64,000 bases of DNA. It comes from Candidatus Kerfeldbacteria bacterium. GTDB lineage: Bacteria; Patescibacteriota; Patescibacteriia; UBA10025; JAHIVO01. The notes under the pieces are model-generated. The model saw only the letters and a list, made by a program, of their open reading frames with translations, had not been told where the DNA came from and searched no databases. The stretch's first letter is position 1; every line of letters begins with the position of its first letter. The stretch is taken from assembly GCA_047946875.1 (NCBI GenBank), contig CP181398.1, positions 463,818 to 527,817 on the forward strand, read 5' to 3'. Both the position numbers and the translations under genes were made by a program. Positions 1-26,348 of this stretch are shown one piece after another.

Positions 1-137
1 AGATTACTGAAAAAATACAGCTATTACTAAATAATTCAGAACTAGCAAATGAGTTAGGATTGGCTGGTAAAAAAAGAGCCCTAGAAAATTTTAACTGGGA
101 TATCGAAATTGAAAAGATAAAAAAGATTATTGATTAA
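1..137 (+). CDS. C-terminal fragment of a glycosyltransferase (GT1/GT4-like); partial at window start
   Basis: Frame 3 reads ...ITEKIQLLLNNSELANELGLAGKKRALENFNWDIEIEKIKKIID, with stop at 135-137. The C-terminal pattern (L..N.EL...LG..GRKR....F.W) is typical of GT-B family 1 glycosyltransferases. Confidence 0.45.
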   Translation, partial: ITEKIQLLLNNSELANELGLAGKKRALENFNWDIEIEKIKKIID

Positions 138-2576: not shown

Positions 2577-2577
2577 A

Positions 2578-3906: not shown

Positions 3907-4776
3907 ATGGATGTATCAATTGTAATTGTTTCATGGCAAGTCAAAGAACAGCTTAAGAATTGTTTGACTTCGATATATAAAGAAACTAAAAACCTCGAAT
4001 TTGAGGTTTTTGTGATAGATAATAATTCTAGTGATAGTACTGTTGAAATGGTCTTGAATAATTTCAGTAAAGTCCATTTAATTGCAAATAAAAGCAATTT
4101 AGGATTTGCTAAAGCTTGTAATCAGGGTATTCAAAGATCTAAAGGTAAAAAAGTATTAATATTAAACCCTGATACAGAAATAAGAGATAATGCAGTTAAA
4201 AAAATATATAATTTTATGTCTAACAATCCTGACTGTGGTATTGCCGGATGTAAAATTAAAAATGAGGATGGAAGTGTTCAACCATCTGTTCGTAGATTTC
4301 CAGATATATTATCTCATATTCTTATACTACTAAAACTTCATAATTTCTTCCCTTCATTTAAACCACTTGGAAAATATCATTTTAATGACTTTGACTACAA
4401 TACTACTCAGATTGTAGATCAAGTTATGGGAGCTTTTTATATGTTAAATAGAGATATGTTAAAAAAAGTTGGAATCTTTGATGAACATTTTTATATATGG
4501 TATGAAGAAGTAGACTTGTGTAAAAGGGCAATTGAAAAAGGTTGGAAGACTTACTATATTCATGAAGCAACGGTAATGCATTTAAAAGGAGTAAGTTTTG
4601 GAAAAGCAAATGTTATTAAGAAACAAATAATATTTAACAGAAGTTTGTTGTATTATTTTTTTAAACATAAAAATATTGTAAGTTATTTTATTTTATTAAT
4701 TATATATCCTATCAGTATTTCATTATCATTTTTAGTACAAATAGTTGGGTATAAAAAAATAAGGAAAGACATCTAA
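3907..4776 (+). CDS. Glycosyltransferase family 2
   Basis: The N-terminus MDVSIVIVSWQVKEQLKNCLTSI...VFVIDNNSSDSTVEMV is the GT2 (GT-A) signature region. A DxD-like region follows. Confidence 0.75.
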   Translation: MDVSIVIVSWQVKEQLKNCLTSIYKETKNLEFEVFVIDNNSSDSTVEMVLNNFSKVHLIANKSNLGFAKACNQGIQRSKGKKVLILNPDTEIRDNAVKKIYNFMSNNPDCGIAGCKIKNEDGSVQPSVRRFPDILSHILILLKLHNFFPSFKPLGKYHFNDFDYNTTQIVDQVMGAFYMLNRDMLKKVGIFDEHFYIWYEEVDLCKRAIEKGWKTYYIHEATVMHLKGVSFGKANVIKKQIIFNRSLLYYFFKHKNIVSYFILLIIYPISISLSFLVQIVGYKKIRKDI

Positions 4777-6281: not shown

Positions 6282-6342
6282 AAATATTGGCTAAATCTGG
6301 TAGAATTCGTTTACAAATTAGATACTAATATTTATATTTCTG

Positions 6343-7182
6343 ATGCTAGATTTATCAATTGTAATAGTAAATTATAATAATAGGGGGTTACTTAGACAAT
6401 GTCTGAAGTCTGTTTTTATAAATTTAAAAGATAGTAATTGTACCTATAAAATTGTCATGGTGGACAATAATTCTAGTGATGGTAGCGTACCTTTAGTTAG
6501 AGATGAATATCCCTCAGTAAGATTAATTCCTTTAGAAAATAATCTAGGATATGCCAAAGGAGTTAATATCGGCATCAAGTCATTAGAATCAAAATATTAC
6601 TTGGTTTTAAACATGGATACTACTATTGTTCAAGAGCATGCAATTGAAGATATGATCAAGTTTATGGATGATAAAAATAATTCAAATGTTGGATTAGCAG
6701 GTCCAAAACTTATTAATCCCAATGGCACAACTCAAGTGTCTTGCTGCATATTTCCGAAATTTATGTATCCTATATACAGAAGAACATTTCTAAGAAAAAT
6801 GCCATTCCCAAAAAAAGCTATACATAAGTACCTTATGTTTGATTGGGACCACAATGATAGCAGAGAGGTTGATTGGGTAATTGGGACAGGGATGATTGTT
6901 CGGAATAATGCCATAAAACAAGTAGGCTTGATGGATGAAAGATTTTTTATGTATTTTGAAGATGTTGATTGGTGTAGAAGATTTTGGGAGAATGATTGGA
7001 AAGTTAAGTATATGCATAATATTCAAATTGTTCATTATCATAGTAGGGGGTCAGCAACTAAAAGAGGATTGCCAAGTATCTTTATGAATAAATTAACCAG
7101 GGTTCATATAAGTTCTTGGATAAAATATTTTATGAAGTATTTAGGTAAGGAAAAACCAAATGTCAAACAAAAAAATAAATAA
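6343..7182 (+). CDS. Glycosyltransferase family 2 (paralog of 3907-4776)
   Basis: N-terminus MLDLSIVIVNYNNRGLLRQCLKSV...VDNNSSDGS. The architecture matches the upstream GT2. Confidence 0.75.
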   Translation: MLDLSIVIVNYNNRGLLRQCLKSVFINLKDSNCTYKIVMVDNNSSDGSVPLVRDEYPSVRLIPLENNLGYAKGVNIGIKSLESKYYLVLNMDTTIVQEHAIEDMIKFMDDKNNSNVGLAGPKLINPNGTTQVSCCIFPKFMYPIYRRTFLRKMPFPKKAIHKYLMFDWDHNDSREVDWVIGTGMIVRNNAIKQVGLMDERFFMYFEDVDWCRRFWENDWKVKYMHNIQIVHYHSRGSATKRGLPSIFMNKLTRVHISSWIKYFMKYLGKEKPNVKQKNK

Positions 7183-9112
7183 TTTTTTACACCCAAAAAG
7201 TAAAAAAAAATCAAAGTATAGAAAATATAAGAAAATAATAGTTCCTATTACAATTGTATTGGGTATTATTATATTTCTCAGCTTAATATTATATTTAGTA
7301 TATAAAGATACGGCGACTAATATATATCGCAATAGCTTAGATGGAAAAAATAATTTTTATCTTGCTCAAGAGAAGATTATTGAACAAGACTTTGATACAG
7401 CAAGTTATGCCCTTAGAGATGCTACAAACAACTTTAAAGAAGCGCATAGTGAGTTTGAAAAAGTACAGTGGTTAAAAATAATACCTTGGGTTGGAATTCA
7501 AGTAAATGCAATTGATAATTTGTTATTAGCTGGAATTTCAACAGGAGAGTCACTTAATGTCATAAGTGATACGGCCAGAGATATTATTACTCCTTTGCAG
7601 AAAAATGATGATATAAGTTTAAGTACTTTATCAGAATCAGAAACTAAAGAATTAATGAAGAGTATTTATGATTCTAAAGAAAATTTGGAAACTGCAAAAA
7701 AATCAATTGATATAGCAGTAGATTATCTTGAAAATATTTCTAAAAAAGGACTACTAGGTAAAATAAAAGAAGTAACTACTCCATTACAAGAAAATGTACC
7801 AGCATTACAAAATAGTATAGATGTGGCAATTTCTGCTAGTCAAATATTACCATCGATTGGTGGATATCCAGAAAAAAAGACATATTTATTTCTTTTACAA
7901 AATAATACAGAGTTACGACCTACGGGTGGGTTTATAGGTACGTATGGAATATTAAAAGTAATCAATGGGGATATAGATTATTTTAAAACTGAAAATGTTT
8001 ATAATCTTGATGAACCTGCAAAAGATTGGGTATATATTGAACCACCATGGCCACTAACTAGATATAATGCTGTATATAATTGGTATTTACGTGATTCAAA
8101 TTGGTCTCCTGATTTTCCAACAGCTGCAAAAAAAGCAGAAGAATTTTATCATTTAGAACGTGGACCAGAAAAAGATATAGATGGTGTAATTGCTGTTACT
8201 CCTACATTTATACAATCACTTTTAAAACTAACTGGAGAGATAACTATTAATGGACTCACTTTCACTGAAGAAAATTTTATTGATACTTTACAATACCAAG
8301 TTGATAAAGGGTTTTTAAGTATAGGATTAGAAGAAAGTGAAAGAAAAGAAATTATTGGATTATTATCAAAAGAGATTTTGGATAGAGTATTAGAATTACC
8401 TAAAAGTCAATGGCCAGATTTCTGGAAAGTTTTTGAAAAAGATATAACTGAAAAACAAATATTGATTTATGTTAAAGATGGTTATGTACAGGATTTTATT
8501 GAGAAAGAAAATTGGGGAGGAACTATAAAAGAAGTGGAACATGATTATTTATCAGTTATTGACGCTAATCTTGCAAGTCTTAAAAGTGATCCTGGTATAA
8601 AGAGAACTATCTCTTATACTGTAAATAGGGATGGAGATAATTTTATTGCTGATTTGAATATAAATTATAAAAATGAAGGAACTATAACATGGAAAACAAC
8701 AAGGTATAGAACCTATACAAGAGTATATGTCCCTGAGGGATCAAATTTATTAAAGTCGTCTGGCAGTATGATTGATTGTAAGATTGATGGTGAGAATGAC
8801 ATTTCTACAGAAGTTGAATTAGGTAAAACTGTATTTGGAGCATTTATTTGCATAGAGCCGGGTGAGGAAGGAAATTTGTCATATAAATATATTCTACCTG
8901 AAAATATTTCTGATAATTTTAAAGATGATCATTATAGTTTATTAGTACAGAAACAACCAGGAGCAGCAGGACACGTCTTGAATATAGAGTTAAAATTAAA
9001 GAAGAAACCAAATATTGCTATAAGTGATAAAGACATTGACATTGTACCGTCGAATGATATAGTAATAAATTCATTATTATCACAGGATCGATTAATTAAA
9101 CTTGAGTATTAA
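7160..9112 (+). CDS. N-terminally anchored exported protein, DUF4012-like
   Basis: 650 aa with a basic N-terminus plus one TM helix. The internal motif LLQNNTELRPTGGFIGTYG matches my memory of the DUF4012 ELRPTGGFIG motif. Such proteins are commonly found beside glycosyltransferases in small-genome bacteria. Confidence 0.4.
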   Translation: MSNKKINNFLHPKSKKKSKYRKYKKIIVPITIVLGIIIFLSLILYLVYKDTATNIYRNSLDGKNNFYLAQEKIIEQDFDTASYALRDATNNFKEAHSEFEKVQWLKIIPWVGIQVNAIDNLLLAGISTGESLNVISDTARDIITPLQKNDDISLSTLSESETKELMKSIYDSKENLETAKKSIDIAVDYLENISKKGLLGKIKEVTTPLQENVPALQNSIDVAISASQILPSIGGYPEKKTYLFLLQNNTELRPTGGFIGTYGILKVINGDIDYFKTENVYNLDEPAKDWVYIEPPWPLTRYNAVYNWYLRDSNWSPDFPTAAKKAEEFYHLERGPEKDIDGVIAVTPTFIQSLLKLTGEITINGLTFTEENFIDTLQYQVDKGFLSIGLEESERKEIIGLLSKEILDRVLELPKSQWPDFWKVFEKDITEKQILIYVKDGYVQDFIEKENWGGTIKEVEHDYLSVIDANLASLKSDPGIKRTISYTVNRDGDNFIADLNINYKNEGTITWKTTRYRTYTRVYVPEGSNLLKSSGSMIDCKIDGENDISTEVELGKTVFGAFICIEPGEEGNLSYKYILPENISDNFKDDHYSLLVQKQPGAAGHVLNIELKLKKKPNIAISDKDIDIVPSNDIVINSLLSQDRLIKLEY

Positions 9113-9114
9113 AT

Positions 9115-10122
9115 ATGTTTTCAAATAGAATCGCAATTGATTTAGGGACAACTTATTCTATAGTTCATATTCCAGGAAGAGGAATAGTAGTTAATGAACC
9201 GTCAGTAGTAGCAATTTCTTTGGTTGATAAAAAGGTAATGGCTGTTGGTAATGAGGCTAAAGATATGATTGGACGAACACCTAATACTATAGTTGCTTCA
9301 AGACCACTTAAAGATGGTGTTATTGCTGATTATAAGACTACTGAAGCGATGATAAAATACTTTATTAACAAAGCTTTAGGGGGTGTTAGGTTTTTCCGAC
9401 CTGAAGTTATGATCGCTGTACCCGCTGGAATAACCTCTACTGAGAGACGTGCTGTAATTGAAGCAACTCTTCAAGCTGGGGCAAAAGCCGCATATATCAT
9501 TAAAGAGCCCATAGCAGCCGCTATTGGGGCAAATATACCCATTGGATCAGCATCTGGACACATGATTGTTGATATTGGAGGCGGTACTAGTGAAATAGCT
9601 GTTATGTCATTAGGTGGCATAGTTGCAAATTCTTCAGTCAGAATCGGAGGAAATAAGTTTGATTATGCTATACAAGAATTTGTTAGAAAAAAATATAACT
9701 TAGCTATTGGGGAAAGAACAGCAGAAGAACTGAAAATCCAAATGGGATCAGCAGTCCCTGTTGAAGAAAAAATGTATATGGAAATTAAGGGAAGGGATTC
9801 AATTCAAGGTTTACCAAAAACTGTAACTGTTGAAAATAACGATATCCCTGAAGCAATTCAAGATGAGTTAGCTGGTATTATACAAGCAATTAAATCTGTA
9901 TTACAAGACACTCCTCCAGAGTTATCTGCAGATATAATGGATAAAGGTATGGTTTTATCCGGGGGTAGTTCATTGTTAAAAAACTTAGACATTCTTCTGT
10001 CAGAAGCAATTGGGGTACCTGCTTATGTTGCAGATGAAGCACAGCTATGTGTAGCAAAGGGTACAGGAATAGCACTAGAAAATTTAGAATCTTATAAAAA
10101 GAGTATTCTTTCTTCAAAATAA
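9115..10122 (+). CDS. mreB: Rod-shape determining actin homolog MreB (paralog 1)
   Basis: MFSNRIAIDLGTTYSIVHIPGRGIVVNEPSVVAI... carries the phosphate-1, phosphate-2 and adenosine motifs (DIGGGTSEIAV, LSGGSSLL). It is 335 aa. Confidence 0.85.
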   Translation: MFSNRIAIDLGTTYSIVHIPGRGIVVNEPSVVAISLVDKKVMAVGNEAKDMIGRTPNTIVASRPLKDGVIADYKTTEAMIKYFINKALGGVRFFRPEVMIAVPAGITSTERRAVIEATLQAGAKAAYIIKEPIAAAIGANIPIGSASGHMIVDIGGGTSEIAVMSLGGIVANSSVRIGGNKFDYAIQEFVRKKYNLAIGERTAEELKIQMGSAVPVEEKMYMEIKGRDSIQGLPKTVTVENNDIPEAIQDELAGIIQAIKSVLQDTPPELSADIMDKGMVLSGGSSLLKNLDILLSEAIGVPAYVADEAQLCVAKGTGIALENLESYKKSILSSK

Positions 10123-11324
10123 TGATAATTGGAATAGATGCCTCAAGAGCAAATAAAGAAAATAAAACTGGCACAGAATGGTATGCCTATAATGTACTAG
10201 AGGAGTTTAAAAAAATCATACCAAAAGAAGACCAAGTTATTTTATACTCTAAAGATAAATTAAGAGGGGATTTGTCAAAACTTCCAAATAATTTTTCTAA
10301 CAAAATACTAAGATGGCCACCAGGTTTTTTGTGGACTCAATTGAGACTTTCTTGGGAAGTCTTTTTTCATAAGCCAGATGTATTGTTTATTCCTGCACAT
10401 ACCATCCCATTACTTTCACCAAAAAAAACAGTCACAACTTTACATGATGTGGGTTTTGAAGAATTTCATGAGTTGTATTCAAAAAAAACAATTGGTCCAG
10501 AAAATTTTATTATAAATTTCATATTTGGAATAGCTTTTAGAATATTAACTTTAGGAAAGTACAAAAATAATGAATTAGAATATCATAGATGGTCTGCTAG
10601 ATTAGCGCTAGAGAAAGCAAAAAAGGTAATTACGATTTCAGATTTTTCTATAAATGAAATAAAAAAACATTTTAATATAAGTGGTGATAAACTAGTGAAT
10701 GTATATAATTCATATAATCCTATATTTCGAAAAATTAGTGATGAAAGTGAAATTAATAAAATATTGCAAAAATATAATATTAAAGATAATTTCTTTTTGT
10801 ATATAGGTAGACTTGAAGAAAAGAAAAATATTCCAAGATTGATTGAGGCATTTAGTATTTTTAAAAAAGAAAATTTTTGTGATACAAAATTAGTTTTAGT
10901 AGGGGCGCAAGGATTTGGATATGATAGAGTGAAAAGTAATATAATAAAATATAATTTAGAGAGTGAAGTAATAGAATTAGGTTGGATAGATAATATAGAT
11001 CTACCATATTTAGTAAATGCAGCTAAGATTTTTTGCTTTCCATCATTATACGAAGGTTTTGGTATGCCGATAATTGAAGCTATGGTTTGTGGCACTCCAG
11101 TTATTACGTCTGATTTCGGCGCAATGAAAGAGGTGGCTAAAGATGCTGCTCTGTTAGTTGATTCATATAATATAAAAAATATAGCAGACGGTATGAGTAT
11201 AATTTATAATGACAATGAATTGTCTGAAAAACTAGTACAAAAAGGTTTTGAAAGAGTTAAGAGTTTTTCTTGGGAAAAAACAGCTTCAATGATAAAAGAG
11301 GTAATATATAATGTAGCTAAGTAG
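10122..11324 (+). CDS. Glycosyltransferase family 1 (GT4-like)
   Basis: The C-terminal motif FCFPSLYEGFGMPIIEAMVCGTPVITSD is the GT1 EX7E region. It is 400 aa. Confidence 0.75.
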   Translation: MIIGIDASRANKENKTGTEWYAYNVLEEFKKIIPKEDQVILYSKDKLRGDLSKLPNNFSNKILRWPPGFLWTQLRLSWEVFFHKPDVLFIPAHTIPLLSPKKTVTTLHDVGFEEFHELYSKKTIGPENFIINFIFGIAFRILTLGKYKNNELEYHRWSARLALEKAKKVITISDFSINEIKKHFNISGDKLVNVYNSYNPIFRKISDESEINKILQKYNIKDNFFLYIGRLEEKKNIPRLIEAFSIFKKENFCDTKLVLVGAQGFGYDRVKSNIIKYNLESEVIELGWIDNIDLPYLVNAAKIFCFPSLYEGFGMPIIEAMVCGTPVITSDFGAMKEVAKDAALLVDSYNIKNIADGMSIIYNDNELSEKLVQKGFERVKSFSWEKTASMIKEVIYNVAK

Positions 11325-11417
11325 GTTAAATATATCAAAACATAAACTTGCAAAAAAATGCGATTTATGTTATGTTATAAATTATAAATTTATTAAATAT
11401 ATTGAAATTAGTACAGT

Positions 11418-12425
11418 ATGACTAAGTCTGAGAAAAATTTCTCATGGCCAATATTAGGTCATAGTCAAATTAAAAAGTATTTACAAAAGTCTATTGAGTC
11501 AAATAAAATTGCGCATGCATATTTATTTTACGGACCAGAGAACGTAGGTAAATCAGAAATAGCTGATATATTTTGTATGTCATTATTGTGCAAAAGTACG
11601 CTAAATAAGCCCTGTCATAAATGTAGTTCATGTAAGCAATATATTAAAGGTATTTATCCAGACGTAATAGTAATTGACAAAGAAGAAGACAAGCAAAATA
11701 TTACGATAAATCAAATTAGGAAATTACAACAAAAATTATCATTGAAATCTTTTTTAACTGATTATAAAATAACGATCATTAGAAATTCAGAGTTGATGAC
11801 TGAGCAAGCTTCAAATGCTTTATTGAAAACACTAGAAGAACCTTTTTCAAAAACAATATTTATTTTATTAACTGAAAACAAAAGTAAACTACCCGATACA
11901 ATATCTTCAAGGTGTCAAATAATAAATTTTAACCTAGTTCCAATTTTTCAAATTGAAAATTGGTTAATATTGCAAGGAATAGCTAAAAGAGATTCAAAAT
12001 TATTTGCGCATGCATCTAATGGAAGGCCTAAATTAGCAAAAGTATTCATCGATGATAAGAATTATACTGTAAATCAAAGAGAGTCCATAAAAGTATTGTT
12101 AGAAATTATAAAAAATAGTAACGTAAATGAAAAATTTTTGTTAGTTGATAAAATTATACCTAAAAAAACTGAAAATAGGATTGAATCATTAATATTTACT
12201 TTAGATCAATGGGAATATTTCATTAGAGATATTATGTTAGCTAAAAATCATAATATAAATATAATTAGTAATTACTACTTTAAAGAAACAATATCAAAAT
12301 TAGCAGAGTCTTTAAAAAATAAGAATCTAGTTACATTGTTAGAAAACATATATAAGTCAAAAAAGTTACTATTAAGTTCTGTTAATCCAAAATTAATTTT
12401 TGAAAATTTATCACTATCATTCTAA
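11418..12425 (+). CDS. holB: DNA polymerase III delta-prime subunit
   Basis: AHAYLFYGPENVGKSEIA (degenerate Walker A), the zinc module CHKCSSCKQY and the SRC motif (ISSRCQ) are present. The size is about 335 aa. Confidence 0.7.
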   Translation: MTKSEKNFSWPILGHSQIKKYLQKSIESNKIAHAYLFYGPENVGKSEIADIFCMSLLCKSTLNKPCHKCSSCKQYIKGIYPDVIVIDKEEDKQNITINQIRKLQQKLSLKSFLTDYKITIIRNSELMTEQASNALLKTLEEPFSKTIFILLTENKSKLPDTISSRCQIINFNLVPIFQIENWLILQGIAKRDSKLFAHASNGRPKLAKVFIDDKNYTVNQRESIKVLLEIIKNSNVNEKFLLVDKIIPKKTENRIESLIFTLDQWEYFIRDIMLAKNHNINIISNYYFKETISKLAESLKNKNLVTLLENIYKSKKLLLSSVNPKLIFENLSLSF

Positions 12426-12428
12426 AAT

Positions 12429-13478
12429 ATGAATAAAAAAATAATAGTTATCATATTTGTAATAATTTCAACTGTAATACTATCCGGATGTAGTATAAAA
12501 ACAAGCGCCACAAAAAGTGATGGGGGAATTTTTAAGACAACTGATTTTGGATCAAATTGGATACAAAAATCTTTTGTTGAAAACACTGAAGAAGGCGTTA
12601 TTACAATAGGTAGGACCAATACTAATTTTTTAGTTTTCGATCCAATAGATGAAGATACAATATACTTATCAACAACCGGTAACGGAGTGTATGCTACTAC
12701 TAATTCTGGGGATCAATGGTTTCCAACAACATTATCATCAGGAACCTATAAGAGCTTGAGTATTGATAGAAGAAATAATGATGTTGTTTATGTTACTGAA
12801 GGAAAAAATATATTTAAATCAGTTGATGGCTTTAAAACATGGAACAATATATATATCGAAAATAGACCAGGGCAAATTATTACGAGTGTAATTGTAGATC
12901 GTTTCAAGCCAAATGTAGTTTATGCAGCTACTACCACAAGTATTCTAAAAAGTTTTGATTATGGGAATAGTTGGGAATTACTTGACTGGGAAGGCATAGT
13001 TATAATATATATGGCACAAAGCGAAATAAACCCAAATAATTTATACGCGCTTACAAACTCAGGAATATATAAGTCTACAAACAATGCACTTGAATGGATA
13101 TTGATGAGTGAAGGTTTAACTGAATATCCAGGAGGTAATGTTATTACTTGGTTTCAATTTGATCCAAAAACTGAGAATATAATTCTCGGAACGAATTTTG
13201 GGATTATTAGAAGTACAGATGGAGCGAATACTTGGCATGATATACCAACATTATTTGAATTTAAAAAGATTGCAATTAAGCCAGTAATTTATAACCCAAA
13301 TGATTTAAGTGAATTAATTTTTGCAGTTGGTAATGTAATTTACAAAACAGACGATAGCGGTGCAACCTGGAAAACATTAAAAACAGTAGCAACTACACGA
13401 ACTATTAATTATTTAATTGCTGATCCGTATCATGATGATGTAATTTTTGCTGGTACGTATCAAGCACCTACAAAATAA
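12429..13478 (+). CDS. Lipoprotein with BNR/Asp-box repeats (beta-propeller)
   Basis: Signal peptide with lipobox LSGCS. It carries repeated S-x-D-x-G-x-(T/S)-W motifs (SGDQW, DGFKTW, YGNSW, DGANTW, DSGATW). Confidence 0.55.
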   Translation: MNKKIIVIIFVIISTVILSGCSIKTSATKSDGGIFKTTDFGSNWIQKSFVENTEEGVITIGRTNTNFLVFDPIDEDTIYLSTTGNGVYATTNSGDQWFPTTLSSGTYKSLSIDRRNNDVVYVTEGKNIFKSVDGFKTWNNIYIENRPGQIITSVIVDRFKPNVVYAATTTSILKSFDYGNSWELLDWEGIVIIYMAQSEINPNNLYALTNSGIYKSTNNALEWILMSEGLTEYPGGNVITWFQFDPKTENIILGTNFGIIRSTDGANTWHDIPTLFEFKKIAIKPVIYNPNDLSELIFAVGNVIYKTDDSGATWKTLKTVATTRTINYLIADPYHDDVIFAGTYQAPTK

Positions 13479-13492
13479 ATATTAAAAAATAT

Positions 13493-14044
13493 ATGAGTAT
13501 AATAAGTGATAAAGAGTTTTATTTCGAAGATGCAATTAATTATTTAAAAAATGAACTAAACCAAATAAGGACTGGTACAGCTAATCCTTCTTTAGTAGAA
13601 AATATTAAAGTTGATTATTATGGTACTTTAACGCCATTAAATCAATTGGCAAATATAAGTATTCCAGATCCAAAGTCTATAGTGATTCAACCTTGGGATA
13701 AAAACATCATGAAGGAAATAGAAAAATCAATTCAGCAAACCGATTTAGGGTTAAATCCAGTAAACGAAGGAGAACAGCTTCGCATACCAATTCCTCCATT
13801 AACAGAAGAGAGAAGAAAAGATCTAGCAAAAAAAGTTCATGAGAAAACTGAAGATTGTAAGATTAGTATTAGAAATACACGTGAAGAAATTTGGAAAGAA
13901 ATAAAAGAGAAGAAGAATAATGGAGAGATATCAGAAGATGATATGTTTAATCAACAAAAGGAATTACAAAAATTGATTGAAGAGAAAAATAACCTCACTA
14001 AAGAAATCGGAGAGGGGAAAGAAAAAGAAGTTTTAACTTTATAA
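13493..14044 (+). CDS. frr: Ribosome recycling factor
   Basis: 183 aa. The sequence ...LNQIRTGTANPSLVENIKVDYYGTLTPLNQLANISIPDPKSIVIQPWDKN... is the RRF signature. Confidence 0.9.
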   Translation: MSIISDKEFYFEDAINYLKNELNQIRTGTANPSLVENIKVDYYGTLTPLNQLANISIPDPKSIVIQPWDKNIMKEIEKSIQQTDLGLNPVNEGEQLRIPIPPLTEERRKDLAKKVHEKTEDCKISIRNTREEIWKEIKEKKNNGEISEDDMFNQQKELQKLIEEKNNLTKEIGEGKEKEVLTL

Positions 14045-14050
14045 CAAGAT

Positions 14051-15229
14051 ATGTTTCTTACCGTAATAATATTTATAGTAGTTTTAGGTTTAATAGTCTT
14101 TGTTCATGAATTAGGACATTTTTATTCTGCTAAAAAATTAGGTATTGGAGTAGAAGAGTTTGGATTTGGTTTTCCACCTAGATTATTTGGGATTCAGAAG
14201 ATTAATGGAACTAAAAAATGGAAATTTATAAAAGGGTCAAAAACTCCCGAAATTACTGCTGAAACAAAAGGTAATGTAATATATTCTTTGAATTGGATAC
14301 CTATTGGTGGATTTGTAAAAATTAAAGGTGAACAAGGTGATCAAAAAGATGAAGATGATAGTTTTTCAAGTAAAAAAATTTGGAAAAGGGTTGTAGTATT
14401 ATCAGCAGGTGTAGCTATGAATTTTATTTTTGCATTCATAATAATAAGTATAGGTTTTGGTATTGGTATTCCAAATGCAGTAGATCAAGATGTACCAGAA
14501 TCAGCAATAGTCTTTGAACAAAAAATTCAAGTAGTGGAGGTTGAATCAGAATCACCTGCAGAAGAAGCTGGTATTAAACTCGGTGACATTATTGTATCTT
14601 CCAAGGAAGTATTTTTTGTAACAACGCAGGATTTTCAAGATTTTGCTGGTCCAAATTTAAATAATGAAATTATTTTAACCATCGATAGAGCTGGTGAAGA
14701 AATTGTGGTGAATGTAATTCCTGAAGATTTGAATGATAACGGTAAAGGAGCAGTAGGTATTTGGTTAGCAGATATTGGACTTATCAAATATCCTTGGTAT
14801 ATGGCTATATGGATGGGGGCTAAAACCACCGTCCAAATAACTTGGCAGATTCTAGTTGCTTTTTTTGAACTAATTAAAAACTTAATTATAACTCAAGAAG
14901 CGGGAATGGAATTAGCAGGACCAGTTGGTATTGCAGTTTTAACTGGTCAGGTAGCTAAACTTGGATTTATATATTTATTGCAATTTGCAGCGATACTTTC
15001 AATCAATTTAGGTATTATTAATTTTATACCCTTTCCAGCGCTAGATGGAGGAAGAGTTCTGTTTTTATTAATTGAAAAAATTCGAAAAAAACCAATGAAT
15101 GAAAAGATAGAAGCGATGATGCACAACTTCGGATTTTTATTACTAATACTACTTGTCCTTTTCGTTACATTTAAGGATATTAGTAAGTATGGCGACTCAA
15201 TAAAAGGATTTTTTACAAATATATTTTAA
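14051..15229 (+). CDS. rseP: RIP zinc metalloprotease RseP (site-2 protease, M50)
   Basis: An HELGH motif sits in the first TM helix, a central PDZ-like region follows, and a C-terminal LDGGR motif is present. It is polytopic. Confidence 0.85.
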   Translation: MFLTVIIFIVVLGLIVFVHELGHFYSAKKLGIGVEEFGFGFPPRLFGIQKINGTKKWKFIKGSKTPEITAETKGNVIYSLNWIPIGGFVKIKGEQGDQKDEDDSFSSKKIWKRVVVLSAGVAMNFIFAFIIISIGFGIGIPNAVDQDVPESAIVFEQKIQVVEVESESPAEEAGIKLGDIIVSSKEVFFVTTQDFQDFAGPNLNNEIILTIDRAGEEIVVNVIPEDLNDNGKGAVGIWLADIGLIKYPWYMAIWMGAKTTVQITWQILVAFFELIKNLIITQEAGMELAGPVGIAVLTGQVAKLGFIYLLQFAAILSINLGIINFIPFPALDGGRVLFLLIEKIRKKPMNEKIEAMMHNFGFLLLILLVLFVTFKDISKYGDSIKGFFTNIF

Positions 15230-15247
15230 TTATAAGGAAATTAAACC

Positions 15248-16309
15248 GTGGGAATATTTAATAACTTTTTTGGAAAATTTTCTAGAGATATGGGCATTGA
15301 TTTAGGTACTGCAAATACCTTGGTTTATGTTAAGGATAAAGGGATAATTATAAATGAACCTTCGGTTGTAGCTGTTAATACAAGAAATGATCAAATATTA
15401 GCAGTTGGCGAAGAAGCTCAAAAAATGATTGGTAAAACTCCTGCTCATATAGTTGCATCACGACCATTAGTTGATGGTGTGATCTCCGATTTTGAAATAA
15501 CTGAGAAAATGTTAAAATATTTTATTGACAAGGTTCATCGTGAAAGTTTTTCTATTTTGCCTAGACCACGAATTGTAATTGGTATTCCATTGGGTGTAAC
15601 AGAAGTTGAAAGAAAAGCAGTAGAAGATGCCTGTTTGAGTGCTGGTGCACGTGAAGTATTTCTAATAGAAGAGCCAATGGCTGCTGCTATTGGTGCAAGA
15701 ATGCCAATACAAGAAGCCACTGGTAGCATGGTAGTTGATATAGGTGGTGGAACAACAGAAATCGCTGTTATCTCATTAGGTGGAGTTATTACATGGAAGT
15801 CTATACGAATCGCAGGTGATGAGTTAGATAAAAATATTATACAATACGCCCGGGACCATTTTAATTTGTTGCTTGGAGATAGAACAGCTGAGGTTATTAA
15901 ATTAAAAATTGGATCTGCTTTTTCTTCTGAGGATCCTTTGACAACCACTATGAGAGGTAGAGATTTAATAACAGGTTTACCAAAAGAAGTAGAAGTAAAT
16001 AGTAATCACGTTCGTGAAGCAATTTCTAGATCATTAAGACAAATTATTGAAAATATAAAATCAACAATTGAAATAACACCCCCAGAATTAGTAGCTGATA
16101 TATTTGAAAGAGGTATAGTGTTGACCGGTGGTGGTGCTTTATTGAATAATTTAGATAAATTAATAAACCGTGAAACTAAAATACCTGTACATATTACAGA
16201 TGATCCTTTAACAGCTGTAGCAAGAGGTACGGGTATAGTATTAGATGACCTTGAAGCTTTAAAAGAAGTATTAGCTGATTCAGTTGATGCAAATACTTTT
16301 AAAAACTAA
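15248..16309 (+). CDS. mreB: Rod-shape determining protein MreB (paralog 2, in mreBCD cluster)
   Basis: MGIDLGTANTLVYV...VVDIGGGTTEIAV...LTGGGALL are present. It lies immediately upstream of mreC. Confidence 0.9.
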   Translation: MGIFNNFFGKFSRDMGIDLGTANTLVYVKDKGIIINEPSVVAVNTRNDQILAVGEEAQKMIGKTPAHIVASRPLVDGVISDFEITEKMLKYFIDKVHRESFSILPRPRIVIGIPLGVTEVERKAVEDACLSAGAREVFLIEEPMAAAIGARMPIQEATGSMVVDIGGGTTEIAVISLGGVITWKSIRIAGDELDKNIIQYARDHFNLLLGDRTAEVIKLKIGSAFSSEDPLTTTMRGRDLITGLPKEVEVNSNHVREAISRSLRQIIENIKSTIEITPPELVADIFERGIVLTGGGALLNNLDKLINRETKIPVHITDDPLTAVARGTGIVLDDLEALKEVLADSVDANTFKN

Positions 16310-16312
16310 ACT

Positions 16313-17128
16313 ATGAAGAAGATTCTTGCTACAAAATGGGGAATGGTAATTTTAGGTATTATTATTGTTATTGTATTAATTTCTTTGACAAGATTTGGAG
16401 TATTTAAATTTGCCGACAGCACTATGTCATATGCATTTTCACCTATACAGTCATTTTTTTCGTCGAGTGCAGATAAAATTTCAAACTTTTTTGTATATTT
16501 TAGTGATATTAAAGATTTGCAAAAAGAAAACGAATCACTAAATGAAGAAATTTCATTATTAACTGTTGAAAATCTTCAATTGCAAAGTACAATCAAAAGC
16601 AGTGAAATAGTGCTTGAAGAATTAAAATATATTACTGAATATAATTATAATTCAGTTACTGCAAAAATTGTTAGTAGAGGGATAGGAGATTATTTAAATT
16701 CTATTATTATTAATAAAGGTTTAAATGATAATATACAAAAAGGTTTCCCAGTTATAGCAAATTCTGGTCATTTGATTGGTAAAATTATTGAAGTTAACGA
16801 TTATACTTCAAAAGTAATACTATTAAATGATAATCATAGTAAAGTGAGCGCTTTAATACAAAATAGTGATCTTAGTCCAGGTATAGTTGCTGGTCAGTAT
16901 GGAATTACGCTTAGGATGATTCTTGTACCACAAGATCAGCTGATTCAAAATGAAGAAATTGTTATAACTTCAGGAATTGAAGAATTTATACCTGCTGATT
17001 TGATTATAGGTAAAATATCAGGTGTGTTTAAAAAAGAAAGTGAGCTTTTTCAAGAGGCAGATGTAGAGCCAATTGTAGATTATAGTAATTTAAGTATTGT
17101 TTCAGTAATACTACCCGTTAATGATTAA
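16313..17128 (+). CDS. mreC: Rod-shape determining protein MreC
   Basis: N-terminal TM helix, a coiled-coil segment (LQKENESLNEEISLLTVENLQLQ), then a beta-rich domain. It follows mreB. Confidence 0.75.
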   Translation: MKKILATKWGMVILGIIIVIVLISLTRFGVFKFADSTMSYAFSPIQSFFSSSADKISNFFVYFSDIKDLQKENESLNEEISLLTVENLQLQSTIKSSEIVLEELKYITEYNYNSVTAKIVSRGIGDYLNSIIINKGLNDNIQKGFPVIANSGHLIGKIIEVNDYTSKVILLNDNHSKVSALIQNSDLSPGIVAGQYGITLRMILVPQDQLIQNEEIVITSGIEEFIPADLIIGKISGVFKKESELFQEADVEPIVDYSNLSIVSVILPVND

Positions 17129-17645
17129 AAAAATATTACTACCTTTAATAATTATTCTTGTCAGTTTATTTCAAGTAAGCTTTATTGGGGAATTTGATTT
17201 TTTAAGAAATAATTTACAATTACTATTAGTCATAGTTATTGTGTTAACTTTCTATAGTTCATATAAGTCTGTTTTAATTTTTAGTATAATATCTGGTTTT
17301 ATTGTAGATTTATTTTCAATTTATAATTTTGGTGTTACCACTGCAGCATTTTTAATTACATTTTTACTAATAAATTTATTATTTAAAAGATTAATATCAA
17401 ATAAAGAAACATACTCATTGATTTTAGTTACTTTAATAGGTACAGTAGTTTATAACGTTTTTCTTTTTCTAGTAACAAATTCATTATATATAATTAATTT
17501 AAATTCCGTAAGAATTATATTTTCTTTTGATTTTTTGTACTCAATAATTTGGCAATTGATTATTCATTCATTTCTTATAATCATTATGTTAGTTTTAACA
17601 AAATTCATAAATAAGAAGTTAGTATCGAAATTTTTTATCAGTTAA
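17121..17645 (+). CDS. mreD: Rod-shape determining protein MreD (polytopic membrane)
   Basis: 174-aa hydrophobic protein overlapping the mreC stop. Its position between mreC and PBP2 is the canonical one. Confidence 0.55.
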   Translation: MIKKILLPLIIILVSLFQVSFIGEFDFLRNNLQLLLVIVIVLTFYSSYKSVLIFSIISGFIVDLFSIYNFGVTTAAFLITFLLINLLFKRLISNKETYSLILVTLIGTVVYNVFLFLVTNSLYIINLNSVRIIFSFDFLYSIIWQLIIHSFLIIIMLVLTKFINKKLVSKFFIS

Positions 17646-17656
17646 AAACCTTTTGA

Positions 17657-19573
17657 ATGGGACAAGATATTTTTAATATACATAGTGATGTTAACGACAC
17701 AGTGGAACGTGATCATCATAAAACAAAGTGGATAGAAGAGTCATTTTCTCCAGGTGAAAAAGAGGATGACTATATATCATCAAATTTTGATATTGGTAAA
17801 TTAAGAATATTATTTTTTGTAATATTGGCAATATTTATTTTTATAATAATTCGATTAGCATTTTTACAAATATATAAAGGAGATGAGTATCGTATTGCAG
17901 CTGAGGATAATAGATTGAGAATTGAAGAAATTAAAGCACCAAGGGGAGAAATTTTAGATCGAAATAGTAATGTATTGGTAAATAATATTCCAAATTTCAT
18001 TTTGTACTTTATACCAGCAGATTTGTCAACGGACGAATATTTAAGGGAATCAATAATTAATAAAATATCAAGTATATTGGATGTTGATCCTTATAATATA
18101 AGACAAATAATTGAATCAGAACAGGATTTTACTTTTAATAAAGTAGTTATTGAAGATCATATTTCTTATGATAAATCTTTATTATTGAATATAGCTAGTT
18201 CTGAATTACCTGGTATTGTATTAGAAACAACAAGTTTTCGTAATTATCTGACAAGTAACAATTATTCTCATCTATTGGGTTATATGGGGAAGGTTACAGA
18301 AAATGATTTGGAAGATGAAGAATTAAATTTTTCTCGTGATGATTATTTAGGAAAATCAGGAATTGAATTGTTTTACGAAAAAGAATTAAAGGGGGTACAT
18401 GGACAAAAAGAAATTGAAGTAAATTCATTTGGTAAAGAAAATAAAATTGTAAATATTTTAGAATCTCAGTCTGGTAGTACTTTAGTTCTTACCATTGATT
18501 CAGGTTTACAAAATGTATTGGGTGATAATTTAGAAGAAGTAATAAATAGCAAAGAAAGTATAACTGGTGGTGCAGCTATAGCTATTAATCCAACAAATGG
18601 AGAGGTTCTAGCATTAGTTTCAGCACCAAATTTTGACTCGAATAAATTCACTTTAGGTTTAAATCAAGAGGAATATGATGAAATAATAAATAACCCTAAA
18701 AAACCTTTATTCAATAGAGCAATTACTGGAGAATACCCATCTGGGTCTACAATTAAACCGGTTGTCTCTTTAGCTGCTCTTGAGGAAGGGATAGTAACTG
18801 AAAACACCACTTTTTTAAGTACCGGTGGAGTGCGTATTGATAAATGGTTTTTCCCTGACTGGAAGGCTGGTGGACATGGTATTACTGATGTAAGAAAAGC
18901 TTTAGCTGAATCAGTTAATACTTACTTTTATATGGTAGGTGGAGGGGATAATGAAACTACAACTGGATTAGGTGTTAGTACACTAACTAAATACATGAGC
19001 ATGTTTGGCTTAGGCCATACTTCAGGAATTGATCTGGTCGGTGAGTCATCAGGTTTTTTGCCATCAAAAGAATGGAAAGAAGAAATTAAAAATGAGAGAT
19101 GGTATATTGGAGATACTTATCATCTAAGTATTGGACAAGGTGATTTATTAGTAACCCCATTACAAGTAGCAAATTATACAGCAACGATTGCTAATGGTGG
19201 TACAGAGTATAAGCCTAGATTGCTAAAATCAATTGTCCCTAAAGATGATTCTGAAGAACAATTAATTGAACCAATAATTGTTAAACAAGATTTTTTAACT
19301 AAATATTATTATCAAATTGTTAAAGAGGGACTACGTGATGGTGTGCTTTATGGAAGTTCGAGATCATTAGGATCATTACCTGTTAGTTCGGCTGGTAAAA
19401 CTGGTACTGCTCAATTTGGAAATAAGGGAGAGACACATGCCTGGTTTACTTCATTTGCTCCATATGAATCACCAGAGATAGTGATAACTGTGTTAGTAGA
19501 AGGTGGAGGTGGCGGAGAAGCTGTTGCATTACCTATTGCAAAAAAAGGACTCGAATATTGGTTTTCTAAGTAA
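17657..19573 (+). CDS. mrdA: Penicillin-binding protein 2 (elongasome transpeptidase)
   Basis: N-terminal TM helix followed by a PBP dimerisation region. The transpeptidase motifs SGSTIKP (SxxK), SIGQG (SxN-like) and KTGTAQ (KTG) are present. Confidence 0.85.
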   Translation: MGQDIFNIHSDVNDTVERDHHKTKWIEESFSPGEKEDDYISSNFDIGKLRILFFVILAIFIFIIIRLAFLQIYKGDEYRIAAEDNRLRIEEIKAPRGEILDRNSNVLVNNIPNFILYFIPADLSTDEYLRESIINKISSILDVDPYNIRQIIESEQDFTFNKVVIEDHISYDKSLLLNIASSELPGIVLETTSFRNYLTSNNYSHLLGYMGKVTENDLEDEELNFSRDDYLGKSGIELFYEKELKGVHGQKEIEVNSFGKENKIVNILESQSGSTLVLTIDSGLQNVLGDNLEEVINSKESITGGAAIAINPTNGEVLALVSAPNFDSNKFTLGLNQEEYDEIINNPKKPLFNRAITGEYPSGSTIKPVVSLAALEEGIVTENTTFLSTGGVRIDKWFFPDWKAGGHGITDVRKALAESVNTYFYMVGGGDNETTTGLGVSTLTKYMSMFGLGHTSGIDLVGESSGFLPSKEWKEEIKNERWYIGDTYHLSIGQGDLLVTPLQVANYTATIANGGTEYKPRLLKSIVPKDDSEEQLIEPIIVKQDFLTKYYYQIVKEGLRDGVLYGSSRSLGSLPVSSAGKTGTAQFGNKGETHAWFTSFAPYESPEIVITVLVEGGGGGEAVALPIAKKGLEYWFSK

Positions 19574-19737
19574 AATATTATTAACTCTATAATCAACTTG
19601 ACAAAATATTGATAAAGTAGGATTATAAAGAAGTAAAAATAATATATATAAATCAAGCAGAATAATAAATTGCCATGTGTTATATTTATTATGTTAAAAA
19701 TTGTAATATATATTTTTAATCAAGTAATTAAAGTATT

Positions 19738-26331: not shown

Positions 26332-26348
26332 ATTTAATTGCATAAAAA

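What the first reader, a model, noticed from the sequence alone, without database searches (positions are those of the whole stretch)
9115..16309. Two MreB paralogs 5 kb apart, one embedded in a glycosyltransferase/DUF4012 surface-glycan cluster
MreB copy 1 (9115-10122) is sandwiched between a DUF4012-like exported protein and a GT1 glycosyltransferase. It lies downstream of GT2-ligase-GT2 genes. MreB copy 2 (15248-16309) heads a canonical mreB-mreC-mreD-PBP2 operon. Both copies retain all actin-fold nucleotide-binding motifs, and by eye they are roughly 50% identical. A dedicated actin homolog co-transcribed with glycan-assembly genes suggests a cytoskeletal scaffold specialised for surface-polymer synthesis or placement. 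It could also be a second, elongasome-independent MreB function.
Basis: partly seen in the sequence, partly recalled or inferred. Interest (0 to 1): 0.5.

Follow-up and report, generated by a model that had tools for sequence, protein, structure and literature searches.

The report
Second MreB wired to glycan genes
This ultra-small (Patescibacteria) bacterium carries two old, distinct copies of the actin-like protein MreB, one in the usual cell-wall elongation operon and one kept next to a specific sugar-transferase gene and surface-glycan genes across many related species, which suggests, but does not prove, a filament devoted to building a wall sugar polymer.

Summary
MreB1 (9115-10122) lies between a DUF4012 membrane protein and a GT4 glycosyltransferase, downstream of GT2, a Wzy_C protein and GT2. 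MreB2 (15248-16309) heads mreB-mreC-mreD-PBP2. The copies are 48% identical and both keep all nucleotide-binding motifs.

The window is from a Candidatus Kerfeldbacteria genome. In 80 species-level relatives:
- An orthologous GT4 directly follows MreB1 in 57 of 72 evaluable loci, with a median gap of 3 nt.
- DUF4012 directly precedes MreB1 in 41 of 70.
- One or the other flanks it in 60 of 64.
- The MreB1-GT4 pair stays together through at least four different gene arrangements.

MreB1 forms its own clade (bootstrap 100) and is never sister to MreB2. It is not Mbl or MreBH, and it is more conserved than MreB2 in all 1035 genome pairs. More distant MreB1-like genes in other Patescibacteria and Chloroflexota also sit beside GT4 or WecG/TagA transferases.

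Best reading, which is inferred and not shown: MreB1 is a membrane filament that organises lipid-linked wall-glycopolymer synthesis alongside the MreB2 elongasome. A 2020 preprint already noted two CPR MreB clades. My literature searches found no report of the glycan linkage. I rate this a new variant of a known kind, of moderate interest.

The parts
127..1269 (-). TuaH-like glycosyltransferase. It is divergent from the cluster and its membership is possible, not shown.
   Evidence: NCBIfam TuaH 85 bits, below the cut-off, so this is family-level similarity only.
1272..2615 (-). UDP-glucose 6-dehydrogenase, which would supply uronic-acid precursor.
   Evidence: NCBIfam TIGR03026 nucleotide-sugar dehydrogenase 396.8 bits (cut-off 189.8). 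TuaD model 398 bits.
3907..4776 (+). GT2 glycosyltransferase with a C-terminal TM segment.
   Evidence: Pfam Glycos_transf_2 81 bits. TM-like segment at residues 262-280. Conserved upstream of MreB1 in 23 of 44 full-flank loci.
4776..6281 (+). Polytopic Wzy_C / O-antigen ligase-polymerase family membrane protein.
   Evidence: Pfam Wzy_C 52.6 bits. About 14 hydrophobic segments. Its start overlaps the GT2 stop by 1 nt.
6343..7182 (+). Second GT2 glycosyltransferase.
   Evidence: Pfam Glycos_transf_2 68.4 bits. Present in 27 of 44 full-flank loci.
7160..9112 (+). DUF4012 bitopic membrane protein. It has a basic cytoplasmic tail of about 25 aa, one TM helix (26-44) and an ectodomain of about 600 aa. 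The ectodomain comprises helical hairpins, an alpha/beta domain and a beta-sandwich.
9036..9063 (+). Promoter-like element (TTGACA, 16 nt, TG-TATAGT) inside the 3' end of the DUF4012 gene, 52 nt upstream of the MreB1 start.
   Evidence: Best-scoring site in 2500-20500, 11 of 12 matches plus an extended -10. TTGACA followed after 17 nt by xATAxT recurs at the aligned position in about 17 of 24 class-A relatives, although the flanks are poorly conserved. The overall count of promoter-like sites is not above the shuffle expectation, so this is suggestive only.
9115..10122 (+). MreB1: the glycan-cluster-associated MreB paralog, 335 aa.
   Evidence: Pfam MreB_Mbl 441 bits. NCBIfam MreB 454.6 bits. 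373 bits to Geobacillus MreB 7zpt. Clade bootstrap 100. All nucleotide-binding motifs kept.
10122..11324 (+). MreB1-associated GT4 (Pfam Glycos_transf_1) glycosyltransferase. It is soluble or peripheral, and its start overlaps the MreB1 stop by 1 nt (TAATG).
   Evidence: Pfam 139 bits. No TM segment. Orthologs next to MreB1 in 58 loci score 208-444 bits to it, whereas other GT4 paralogs score 144 bits or less. Median stop-to-start gap 3 nt.
11418..15229 (+). Intervening housekeeping block: holB, a BNR-repeat exported protein, frr and rseP. It is not part of the system but forms a conserved spacer between the two MreBs.
   Evidence: Pfam hits. The block is conserved in architectures A and B.
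15248..16309 (+). MreB2: the canonical elongasome MreB, 353 aa, with an N-terminal extension (MGIFNNFFGKFS).
   Evidence: Pfam 482.6 bits. NCBIfam 509.4 bits. Followed by MreC in 44 of 47 loci.
16313..19573 (+). mreC, mreD and a PBP2-type transpeptidase.
   Evidence: Pfam MreC 122.4 bits. MreD 22.1 bits, below the cut-off of 24. PBP_dimer plus Transpeptidase.

Best explanation
The genome encodes two anciently diverged MreB lineages that do different jobs.

MreB2, with MreC, MreD and PBP2, is the ordinary peptidoglycan elongasome filament.

MreB1 is an intact, ATP-binding, polymerisation-competent MreB. It is genetically coupled to a specific cytoplasmic GT4 glycosyltransferase through translationally coupled start and stop codons. 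It is usually also linked to a DUF4012 bitopic membrane protein and to a Wzy-type, teichuronic-acid-like glycan cluster made up of GT2s, a Wzy_C protein and UDP-glucose dehydrogenase.

The proposed mechanism is inferred, not shown:
- MreB1 filaments bind the inner face of the membrane. They have no N-terminal amphipathic helix, so binding would probably go through the hydrophobic G-x-R-x-F loop.
- The filaments recruit or position the peripheral GT4 enzyme and the membrane machinery that builds a lipid-carrier-linked wall glycopolymer.
- Secondary-polymer synthesis and attachment would therefore be spatially organised, in parallel with or coordinated with MreB2-driven peptidoglycan insertion.
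- DUF4012 is the candidate transmembrane link to the outside. Its ectodomain is possibly LCP-like, and its basic cytoplasmic tail faces the MreB1 side.
For: Shown:
- The anatomy and domain assignments.
- An orthologous GT4 directly follows MreB1 in 57 of 72 evaluable species-level loci. DUF4012 directly precedes it in 41 of 70. One or the other flanks it in 60 of 64.
- Of 44 loci with 8 kb or more on both sides, all 44 have a GT4 and 34 have DUF4012.
- The pair persists in at least four architectures. A is DUF4012-MreB1-GT4-holB. B is GreA-MreB1-GT4-Bac_transf-GT4x3-DUF4012. C is a sugar-nucleotide enzyme block, a response regulator, then MreB1-GT4. D is DUF4012-MreB1 with the GT4 displaced 2-3 kb downstream.
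- The MreB1 stop to GT4 start gap has a median of 3 nt. It is 20 nt or less in 41 of 58 loci, and the genes overlap in 12.
- The adjacent GT4 is one orthologous family: 208-444 bits, against 144 bits or less for other GT4 paralogs.
- The MreB1 clade has bootstrap 100 and is sister to MreB2 in 0 of 100 replicates.
- MreB1 is more conserved than MreB2 in 1035 of 1035 genome pairs. All nucleotide-binding motifs are intact.
- More distant MreB1-like genes are followed by a transferase in 5 of 9 lineages sampled. It is a GT4 in a Chloroflexota genome and in another Patescibacteria lineage, and a WecG/TagA-family transferase in three others.
- MreB1 is nearly uncharged (mean net charge +0.6), whereas MreB2 averages -8.1 and the reference MreBs range from -3 to -10. 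The DUF4012 cytoplasmic tail has a median charge of +7.

Background:
- In B. subtilis the MreB isoforms orient the Rod complexes, and wall teichoic acids are needed for rod shape (PMC13270295).
- Physical association of MreB with LCP ligases and Tag enzymes is from my own knowledge (Kawai et al. 2011 EMBO J, the paper named in the title of PDB entry 2xxp). I did not re-read that paper here.
Against: - All functional evidence is gene neighbourhood. There is no expression, localisation or interaction data.
- In this window both MreBs lie in one same-strand 15-gene array, and MreB2 is within 10 kb of MreB1 in 37 of 44 loci. The linkage could therefore reflect a general envelope supercluster.
- MreB1-like genes elsewhere sit beside murA, murB and murC. 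That fits a general role in precursor synthesis as well as a glycopolymer-specific one.
- The nearest outgroup (L087) has MreB1-like followed by holB, with no GT4 and no DUF4012. Ten of 44 full-flank loci lack DUF4012 nearby.
- No priming transferase, flippase or sequence-recognisable LCP ligase is present in the window. The pathway as drawn is therefore incomplete here.
- The acceptor and product of the GT4 are unknown, since only generic GT4 similarities were found.
Confidence: 0.5

Rival explanations
1. MreB1 is a partly redundant second elongasome isoform, comparable to MreB/Mbl/MreBH in Bacillus. It would co-assemble with MreB2. Its position next to glycan genes would simply reflect the clustering of envelope genes in small, highly syntenic genomes.
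For: - Both genes lie in one same-strand array with gaps of 93 nt or less.
- MreB2 is within 10 kb of MreB1 in 37 of 44 loci.
- The order MreB1-(GT4)-holB-frr-rseP-MreB2 is old and is also seen in the outgroup L087.
- The Bacillus isoforms jointly orient Rod complexes (PMC13270295).
Against: - The MreB1-GT4 pair moved as a unit relative to holB-frr-rseP and to mreBCD in architectures B and C.
- The start and stop codons are translationally coupled.
- Independent lineages pair MreB1-like genes with a different lipid-linked-glycan transferase, WecG/TagA.
- The two paralogs are only 47% identical on average. They also differ in net charge and in the N-terminal membrane element.
Confidence: 0.25
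2. MreB1 organises the cytoplasmic and inner-leaflet steps of envelope precursor synthesis in general. This would cover the Mur enzymes, lipid II and any undecaprenyl-linked glycan, not one specific secondary polymer.
For: MreB1-like genes lie next to mur genes in several lineages:
- murA in L087 and in the Chloroflexota locus L085.
- murB in L083 and L091.
- murC and murB in L064.

The Chloroflexota order is atpGDC-murA-mreB-GT4. It recalls the murAA...spoIIID-mbl neighbourhood that I verified in Bacillus methanolicus.
Against: - In the ABY1-type clade to which the window belongs, the immediate and conserved partners are GT4 and DUF4012, not mur genes.
- No mur gene lies in the 3907-19573 array.
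Confidence: 0.15
3. The adjacency has no functional meaning. It would be inherited synteny or hitch-hiking in closely related genomes.
For: The 80 loci are phylogenetically related, so raw counts overstate independence.
Against: - At least four rearranged architectures keep the pair together.
- The partner GT4 is a single orthologous family.
- Similar pairings occur in lineages only 50-58% identical, including Chloroflexota.
Confidence: 0.05

Closest known systems
Two clades of CPR MreB (Takahashi et al., bioRxiv 10.1101/2020.05.13.095042, 'Phylogenetic origin and sequence features of MreB from ... Spiroplasma')
   Same: That phylogeny of 5,002 MreBs found that the CPR MreBs split into two clades. 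[quoted passage not shown] The two clades found here (B1 bootstrap 100, B2 bootstrap 94, never sisters) fit that picture.
   Different: In the passages I read, that work does not report gene context. It makes no link to GT4, DUF4012, WecG or glycan clusters, and it does not compare evolutionary rates. I did not map my clades onto theirs.
Bacillus subtilis MreB / Mbl / MreBH isoforms and their links to wall teichoic acid assembly
   Same: There are several MreB paralogs in one cell. MreB filaments orient wall synthesis, and teichoic acids are required for rod shape (PMC13270295). MreB association with LCP ligases and Tag enzymes is from my own knowledge (Kawai 2011; Formstone 2008).
   Different: - MreB1 is not an Mbl or MreBH ortholog. 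Its tree distance to Mbl is 0.83, against 0.67 to Geobacillus MreB. It does not cluster with verified Mbl. Against the MreBH model it scores 363.7 bits, below the cut-off of 515.
- In Bacillus none of the isoforms is encoded in an operon with glycopolymer enzymes. Here the coupling is built into the gene order.
Wzy-dependent anionic wall polymer clusters such as the B. subtilis teichuronic acid (tua) operon
   Same: The window has GT2 (TuaG-like), GT4 (TuaC-like), a TuaH-like GT, UDP-glucose dehydrogenase (TuaD-like) and a Wzy_C-family membrane protein.
   Different: - All Tua matches are far below the equivalog cut-offs.
- No TuaA-type priming enzyme, Wzx flippase or Wzz-like regulator was found in the window.
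- No tua operon contains an MreB or a DUF4012 protein.
LytR-Cps2A-Psr (LCP) glycopolymer ligases
   Different: - No sequence similarity was detected. A profile search of PDB sequences and Pfam scans of 57 members gave nothing for LCP.
- Foldseek returns only beta-sandwich matches with TM below 0.25.
- Catalytic residues were not compared.

Membership tests
MreB/Mbl family (Pfam PF06723; NCBIfam TIGR00904 / NF010539) | Full-length match above the curated cut-off. | tested here: met
   MreB1: 441 bits (cut-off 27), 447.3 (cut-off 365.75) and 454.6 (cut-off 293). MreB2: 482.6, 480 and 509.4.
MreB/Mbl family | Intact actin-fold nucleotide-binding motifs: phosphate 1, the connect region with catalytic Glu, phosphate 2 and the adenosine motif. 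| tested here: met
   IDLGT, KEPxAAAIGA, DxGGGTsE and LsGGs are conserved at 95% or more (or conservatively substituted) across 80 MreB1 sequences.
MreB/Mbl family | A membrane-binding element, either an N-terminal amphipathic helix or a hydrophobic insertion loop. | tested here: inconclusive
   MreB1 has no N-terminal extension. It does have a G-x-R-x-F loop at the position of the T. maritima GMNLF loop. MreB2 has the extension MGIFNNFFGKFS. Function is inferred from sequence only.
MreB/Mbl family | Assembly into membrane-bound antiparallel double filaments. | not testable with these tools
   Needs biochemistry or cryo-EM.
Canonical elongasome MreB (mreBCD operon member) | Encoded immediately upstream of mreC and mreD, commonly with PBP2/RodA. 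| tested here: not met
   This is the result for MreB1, which is followed by a GT4 and separated from mreC by five genes. MreB2 does meet this criterion: MreC follows it in 44 of 47 loci.
Mbl (Bacillales/Firmicutes isoform) | Groups with verified Mbl orthologs in a tree, and lies in the spoIIID-mbl neighbourhood. | tested here: not met
   Mbl orthologs were verified by context. They fall in a separate group. The B1-Mbl distance is 0.83, greater than the B1-Geobacillus MreB distance of 0.67.
MreBH | Score above the cut-off of the NCBIfam NF010540 exception model. | tested here: not met
   363.7 bits for MreB1 and 419.8 for MreB2, against a cut-off of 515.
Two-clade CPR MreB system (Takahashi et al. 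2020) | Two separate CPR MreB clades that co-occur in single genomes. | tested here: met
   B1 bootstrap 100. B2 plus two representatives, bootstrap 94. Sister in 0 of 100 replicates. Both are present in 47 of 80 loci. Correspondence to the published clades was not checked.
Wzy-dependent wall/surface glycopolymer pathway | Cytoplasmic GTs plus a Wzy-family polymerase or ligase. | tested here: met
   GT2, Wzy_C, GT2 and GT4.
Wzy-dependent wall/surface glycopolymer pathway | A priming phosphoglycosyl transferase and a Wzx-type flippase. | tested here: not met
   Neither was found among the window ORFs scanned. A Bac_transf priming enzyme is present in the Komeilibacteria version, L026. These genes may lie elsewhere in the genome.
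LCP (LytR-Cps2A-Psr) ligases, as a possible identity for the DUF4012 ectodomain | LCP fold with a conserved Arg/Asp pyrophosphate-binding site, and a sequence match to PF03816. | tested here: inconclusive

The most novel reading that the evidence does not exclude
MreB1, its partner GT4 and DUF4012 would form a dedicated, elongasome-independent machine for making wall glycopolymer. An actin-like filament would pattern the synthesis and LCP-like attachment of a wall glycopolymer in ultra-small Patescibacteria cells. The basic cytoplasmic tail of DUF4012 would dock onto the unusually uncharged MreB1. The pairing of MreB1-type genes with GT4 or WecG/TagA enzymes in other Patescibacteria and in Chloroflexota would then mark an ancient second cytoskeletal system for secondary cell-wall polymers.
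Probability: 0.25. Interest if true: 0.75.

Novelty: new variant of a known kind. Interest (0 to 1): 0.55.

Why it matters
MreB is the textbook organiser of peptidoglycan elongation. Links to teichoic-acid and other glycopolymer machineries are known only as physical or genetic interactions in a few model organisms. Here the link is written into gene order. A distinct, very strongly conserved MreB lineage is translationally coupled to one orthologous glycosyltransferase across a large part of the Patescibacteria, and looser versions occur in Chloroflexota.

If the inference holds, three things follow:
- It would assign a role to the second CPR MreB clade.
- It would assign a role to the CPR-enriched DUF4012 family.
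- It would identify an envelope polymer pathway in organisms whose surface mediates their episymbiotic lifestyle.

It also gives a defined three-protein set (MreB1, GT4 and the DUF4012 tail) that can be tested in vitro without cultivating the organism.

Tried and rejected
1. Mbl orthology. The Chloroflexota order atp-murA-mreB-GT4 recalled the Bacillus murAA...mbl neighbourhood. I retrieved Bacillaceae Mbl orthologs and verified one by its murA-spoIID-spoIIID-mbl-flhOP context. In the tree MreB1 does not group with Mbl, so I rejected this idea. My recalled Mbl query was only about 90% identical to real sequences. It served only as bait.

2. MreBH. Rejected on the NCBIfam cut-off.

3. Recent duplication of MreB2. 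Rejected. The copies average 47% identity and were sisters in 0 of 100 bootstrap replicates.

4. A specific function for the GT4. NCBIfam and PDB sequence searches gave only generic GT4 relatives such as BshA, MshA, PimA, TuaC and PglJ, all far below cut-offs.

5. DUF4012 function.
- There is no solved homolog by sequence and no Pfam link other than DUF4012 itself.
- Foldseek gives only weak beta-sandwich matches.
- I kept this as a lead, not a finding.

6. RNA elements. No Rfam family reaches its gathering score anywhere in the window.

7. Terminators. There is no convincing intrinsic terminator between 3907 and 19573. The two terminator-like sites on the + strand lie inside coding sequence.

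8. Literature. My searches for DUF4012, Patescibacteria or Parcubacteria with MreB, 'MreB paralog' with polysaccharide, and CPR with MreB and paralog found the two-clade remark. They found no report of the glycan linkage.

9. Limits of the trees. They are neighbour-joining trees on Kimura distances with 100 bootstraps. Deep branching order among the MreB groups is unresolved.


Full report
**What is there**

The window has low G+C, about 30%. The MreB1 protein is 100% identical to a protein annotated from a Candidatus Kerfeldbacteria MAG with a 1.31-Mb contig. Kerfeldbacteria belong to the Patescibacteria/CPR, Parcubacteria group.

ORF calling and Pfam/NCBIfam scans confirm every element of the finding. 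The + strand carries, in order:
- GT2 (3907-4776).
- A polytopic Wzy_C/O-antigen-ligase-family protein (4776-6281).
- GT2 (6343-7182).
- A DUF4012 protein (7160-9112).
- MreB1 (9115-10122).
- A GT4/Glycos_transf_1 enzyme (10122-11324).
- holB, a BNR-repeat exported protein, frr and rseP.
- MreB2 (15248-16309), mreC, mreD (weak Pfam match) and a PBP2-type transpeptidase (to 19573).

Gaps in this array are 93 nt or less and several genes overlap. The MreB1 stop and the GT4 start share a base (TAATG).

A UDP-glucose dehydrogenase and a TuaH-like GT lie divergently upstream. The cluster therefore resembles a Wzy-dependent, uronic-acid-containing (teichuronic-acid-like) wall polymer pathway. No priming transferase, flippase or recognisable LCP ligase is present in the window.

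**The two MreBs**

- They are 48% identical.
- Both match solved MreBs along their full length. Against Geobacillus MreB, MreB1 scores 373 bits and MreB2 403-406 bits.
- An alignment of 80 MreB1 and 47 MreB2 sequences with E. coli, Caulobacter, Thermotoga and Geobacillus MreB shows that MreB1 keeps all nucleotide-binding motifs. These include the catalytic Glu and a hydroxyl residue (Ser for Thr) in the phosphate-2 motif.
- MreB1 lacks an N-terminal extension but has a G-x-R-x-F loop where Thermotoga MreB has its hydrophobic loop. MreB2 has an E. coli-like N-terminal extension.
- MreB1 is nearly uncharged (mean net charge +0.6). MreB2 averages -8.1 and the reference MreBs range from -3 to -10.

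**Is the linkage conserved?**

A scan of one genome per species returned 80 loci whose MreB is 73-84% identical to MreB1. They are labelled Kerfeld-, Komeili-, Falkow-, Uhr- and Kuenenbacteria, plus unclassified Patescibacteria. I mapped the window proteins onto them.

- A GT4 is directly downstream in 57 of 72 evaluable loci.
- DUF4012 is directly upstream in 41 of 70.
- At least one of the two flanks MreB1 in 60 of 64.
- Among 44 loci with 8 kb or more on both sides, all 44 have a GT4 homolog and 34 have DUF4012.

The neighbourhood has been rearranged at least three times without separating MreB1 from its GT4:
- (A) GT2-WzyC-GT2-GT2-DUF4012-MreB1-GT4-holB...MreB2-mreCD-PBP2.
- (B) ...MreB2-mreC-PBP2-GreA-MreB1-GT4-Bac_transf-GT4-GT4-GT4-DUF4012 (L026).
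- (C) MreB2-mreCD, a PfkB kinase, a sugar epimerase-like protein, a HIT protein, a dehydratase and a response regulator, then MreB1-GT4, an S8 peptidase and an epimerase (L062).
- (D) GT2-DUF4012-MreB1 with the GT4 displaced 2-3 kb downstream and followed by murC and murB (L064).

The adjacent GT4s form one orthologous family. They score 208-444 bits to the window enzyme. Other GT4 paralogs in the same loci score 144 bits or less, apart from the four displaced orthologs of class D. The stop-to-start distance has a median of 3 nt, with 12 overlaps. By contrast MreB2 is followed by MreC in 44 of 47 loci.

**Phylogeny**

I combined representatives of 50%-identity clusters from a search of 1.84 billion proteins with solved MreBs and E. 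coli MreB. In neighbour-joining trees:
- MreB1 forms a clade with bootstrap 100.
- MreB2, with two representatives, has bootstrap 94.
- The two were sisters in 0 of 100 replicates.

The nearest neighbours of MreB1 are other Patescibacteria and Chloroflexota MreBs. Bacillaceae Mbl orthologs, one verified by its murA-spoIID...spoIIID-mbl-flhOP context, fall elsewhere. MreB1 is closer to Geobacillus MreB than to Mbl. The MreBH model is not met.

MreB1 is the slower-evolving copy. Within-clade identity is 78% against 66%. It is more similar between genomes in all 1035 pairs that carry both copies.

**Beyond the clade**

I read contexts for nine more distant MreB1-like proteins.
- A Chloroflexota locus reads atpGDC-murA-MreB-GT4-GT4-deacetylase-WecG-GT2-GT2.
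- One Patescibacteria locus reads MreB-GT4 (orthologous to the window GT4), a 729-aa protein, then GT4-GT4.
- In three related lineages a divergently oriented PEGA protein lies upstream of MreB, and a WecG/TagA-family transferase follows MreB (directly, after a 417-nt gap, or after a small ORF).
- Four have no adjacent transferase. One of these reads murA-MreB1-like-holB-frr-rseP-MreB2-like.

So this wider MreB lineage is repeatedly paired with enzymes that act on lipid-carrier-linked glycans, and also with mur genes.

**DUF4012**

- The protein has a basic tail of about 25 residues, one TM helix and a large ectodomain. The tail has a median charge of +7 across 56 homologs, and about half carry an N-terminal NF motif.
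- An AF2 model built from 57 homologs is confident, with pLDDT 85 and pTM 0.81. It shows long helical hairpins, an alpha/beta domain and a beta-sandwich.
- Foldseek and sequence or profile searches give no support for an LCP relationship. I treat the LCP resemblance as a lead.
- The literature describes DUF4012 as enriched in CPR and Gram-positive lineages and located in a Bifidobacterium EPS/CPS cluster (PMC6744442).

**Transcription**

The best promoter-like site in 2500-20500 is TTGACA-16-TATAGT with a TG extension. It lies 52 nt upstream of MreB1, inside the DUF4012 gene. A TTGACA followed after 17 nt by xATAxT recurs at the aligned position in about 17 of 24 class-A relatives, although the flanks are poorly conserved. 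This suggests that MreB1-GT4 can be transcribed as its own unit. The promoter scan as a whole is not enriched over shuffles, so this is tentative.

**Interpretation**

Established:
- A distinct, intact and strongly constrained MreB lineage.
- A conserved, translationally coupled partnership with one GT4 family.
- Frequent co-location with DUF4012 and Wzy-type glycan genes.

Inferred: MreB1 filaments organise the membrane-associated synthesis, and perhaps the attachment, of a wall glycopolymer alongside the MreB2 elongasome.

Rival readings that are not excluded:
- A partly redundant elongasome isoform sitting in an envelope supercluster.
- A general organiser of precursor synthesis, supported by the mur adjacencies.

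Pure chance or hitch-hiking is disfavoured by the rearrangements and by the independent pairings.

**Novelty**

A 2020 preprint already noted two CPR MreB clades that co-occur in some species, and suggested different roles. The searches run here found no report of the GT4, DUF4012 or WecG linkage, of the rate asymmetry, or of the charge difference. I classify this as a new variant of a known kind: MreB paralog specialisation and MreB coupling to glycopolymer synthesis. Interest is moderate.

Noticed in passing
window 26000-46000 (integrase at 32188-33126): Gene orientation switches from + (up to about 44 kb) to - (from about 45 kb). Cumulative GC skew peaks and plateaus between about 24 and 45 kb. 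A XerC/D-type tyrosine recombinase, with Phage_integrase plus an N-terminal SAM-like domain, sits at 32188-33126. It is flanked by a 4.7-kb stretch containing only small ORFs. This could be the replication terminus region or a small integrated element.
   Followed up: no
window 1-64000: No Rfam family reaches its gathering score anywhere in 64 kb. That means no tRNA, rRNA, riboswitch or leader family was detected.
   Followed up: partly
window 9036-9063, and aligned positions in L002-L069: A TTGACA hexamer followed after 17 nt by an xATAxT element is conserved inside the poorly conserved 3' end of the DUF4012 gene, 50-115 nt upstream of MreB1. It occurs in about 17 of 24 relatives. It may be an internal promoter for MreB1-GT4.
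   Followed up: partly
window 9115-10122 versus 15248-16309: MreB1 proteins are nearly uncharged (mean net charge +0.6). MreB2 averages -8.1 and the four reference MreBs range from -3 to -10. The neighbouring DUF4012 protein has a strongly basic cytoplasmic tail, so simple charge complementarity with MreB1 is not obvious.
   Followed up: partly
L083, L091, L092, L093: In another Patescibacteria MreB1-like lineage, a divergently transcribed PEGA-domain protein of about 400 aa lies upstream of MreB in four of four loci. A WecG/TagA-family transferase lies downstream in three of the four.
   Followed up: partly
L085 / L086 (Chloroflexota) and L090 (Bacillus methanolicus): The Chloroflexota order atpG-atpD-atpC-murA-mreB-GT4 resembles the Bacillus murAA-spoIID...spoIIID-mbl neighbourhood. 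Even so, the MreBs do not group together in the tree.
   Followed up: partly
L087 11445-12569: In the nearest outgroup of the MreB1 clade, the second MreB (374 aa) follows rseP as it does in the window. There it is followed by gatC and gatA, not by mreC.
   Followed up: no
window 34301-43041: This stretch holds a run of small-molecule enzymes on the + strand: three SAM-methyltransferase-domain proteins, two YfbR-like HD phosphohydrolases, a NUDIX protein, a HAD protein, a protein matching the C-terminal domain of LPG synthase, and a weak glycosyl-hydrolase match. It lies next to the integrase region and could be an accessory island.
   Followed up: no
window 58099-58171: A 33-bp AT-rich tandem repeat, 2.2 copies at 92% match, lies in an intergenic region.
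   Followed up: no
window 3420-3860 and 2578-3258(-): Two ORFs without a Pfam or NCBIfam match (146 aa and 226 aa) sit at the divergent junction just upstream of the glycan cluster.
   Followed up: no
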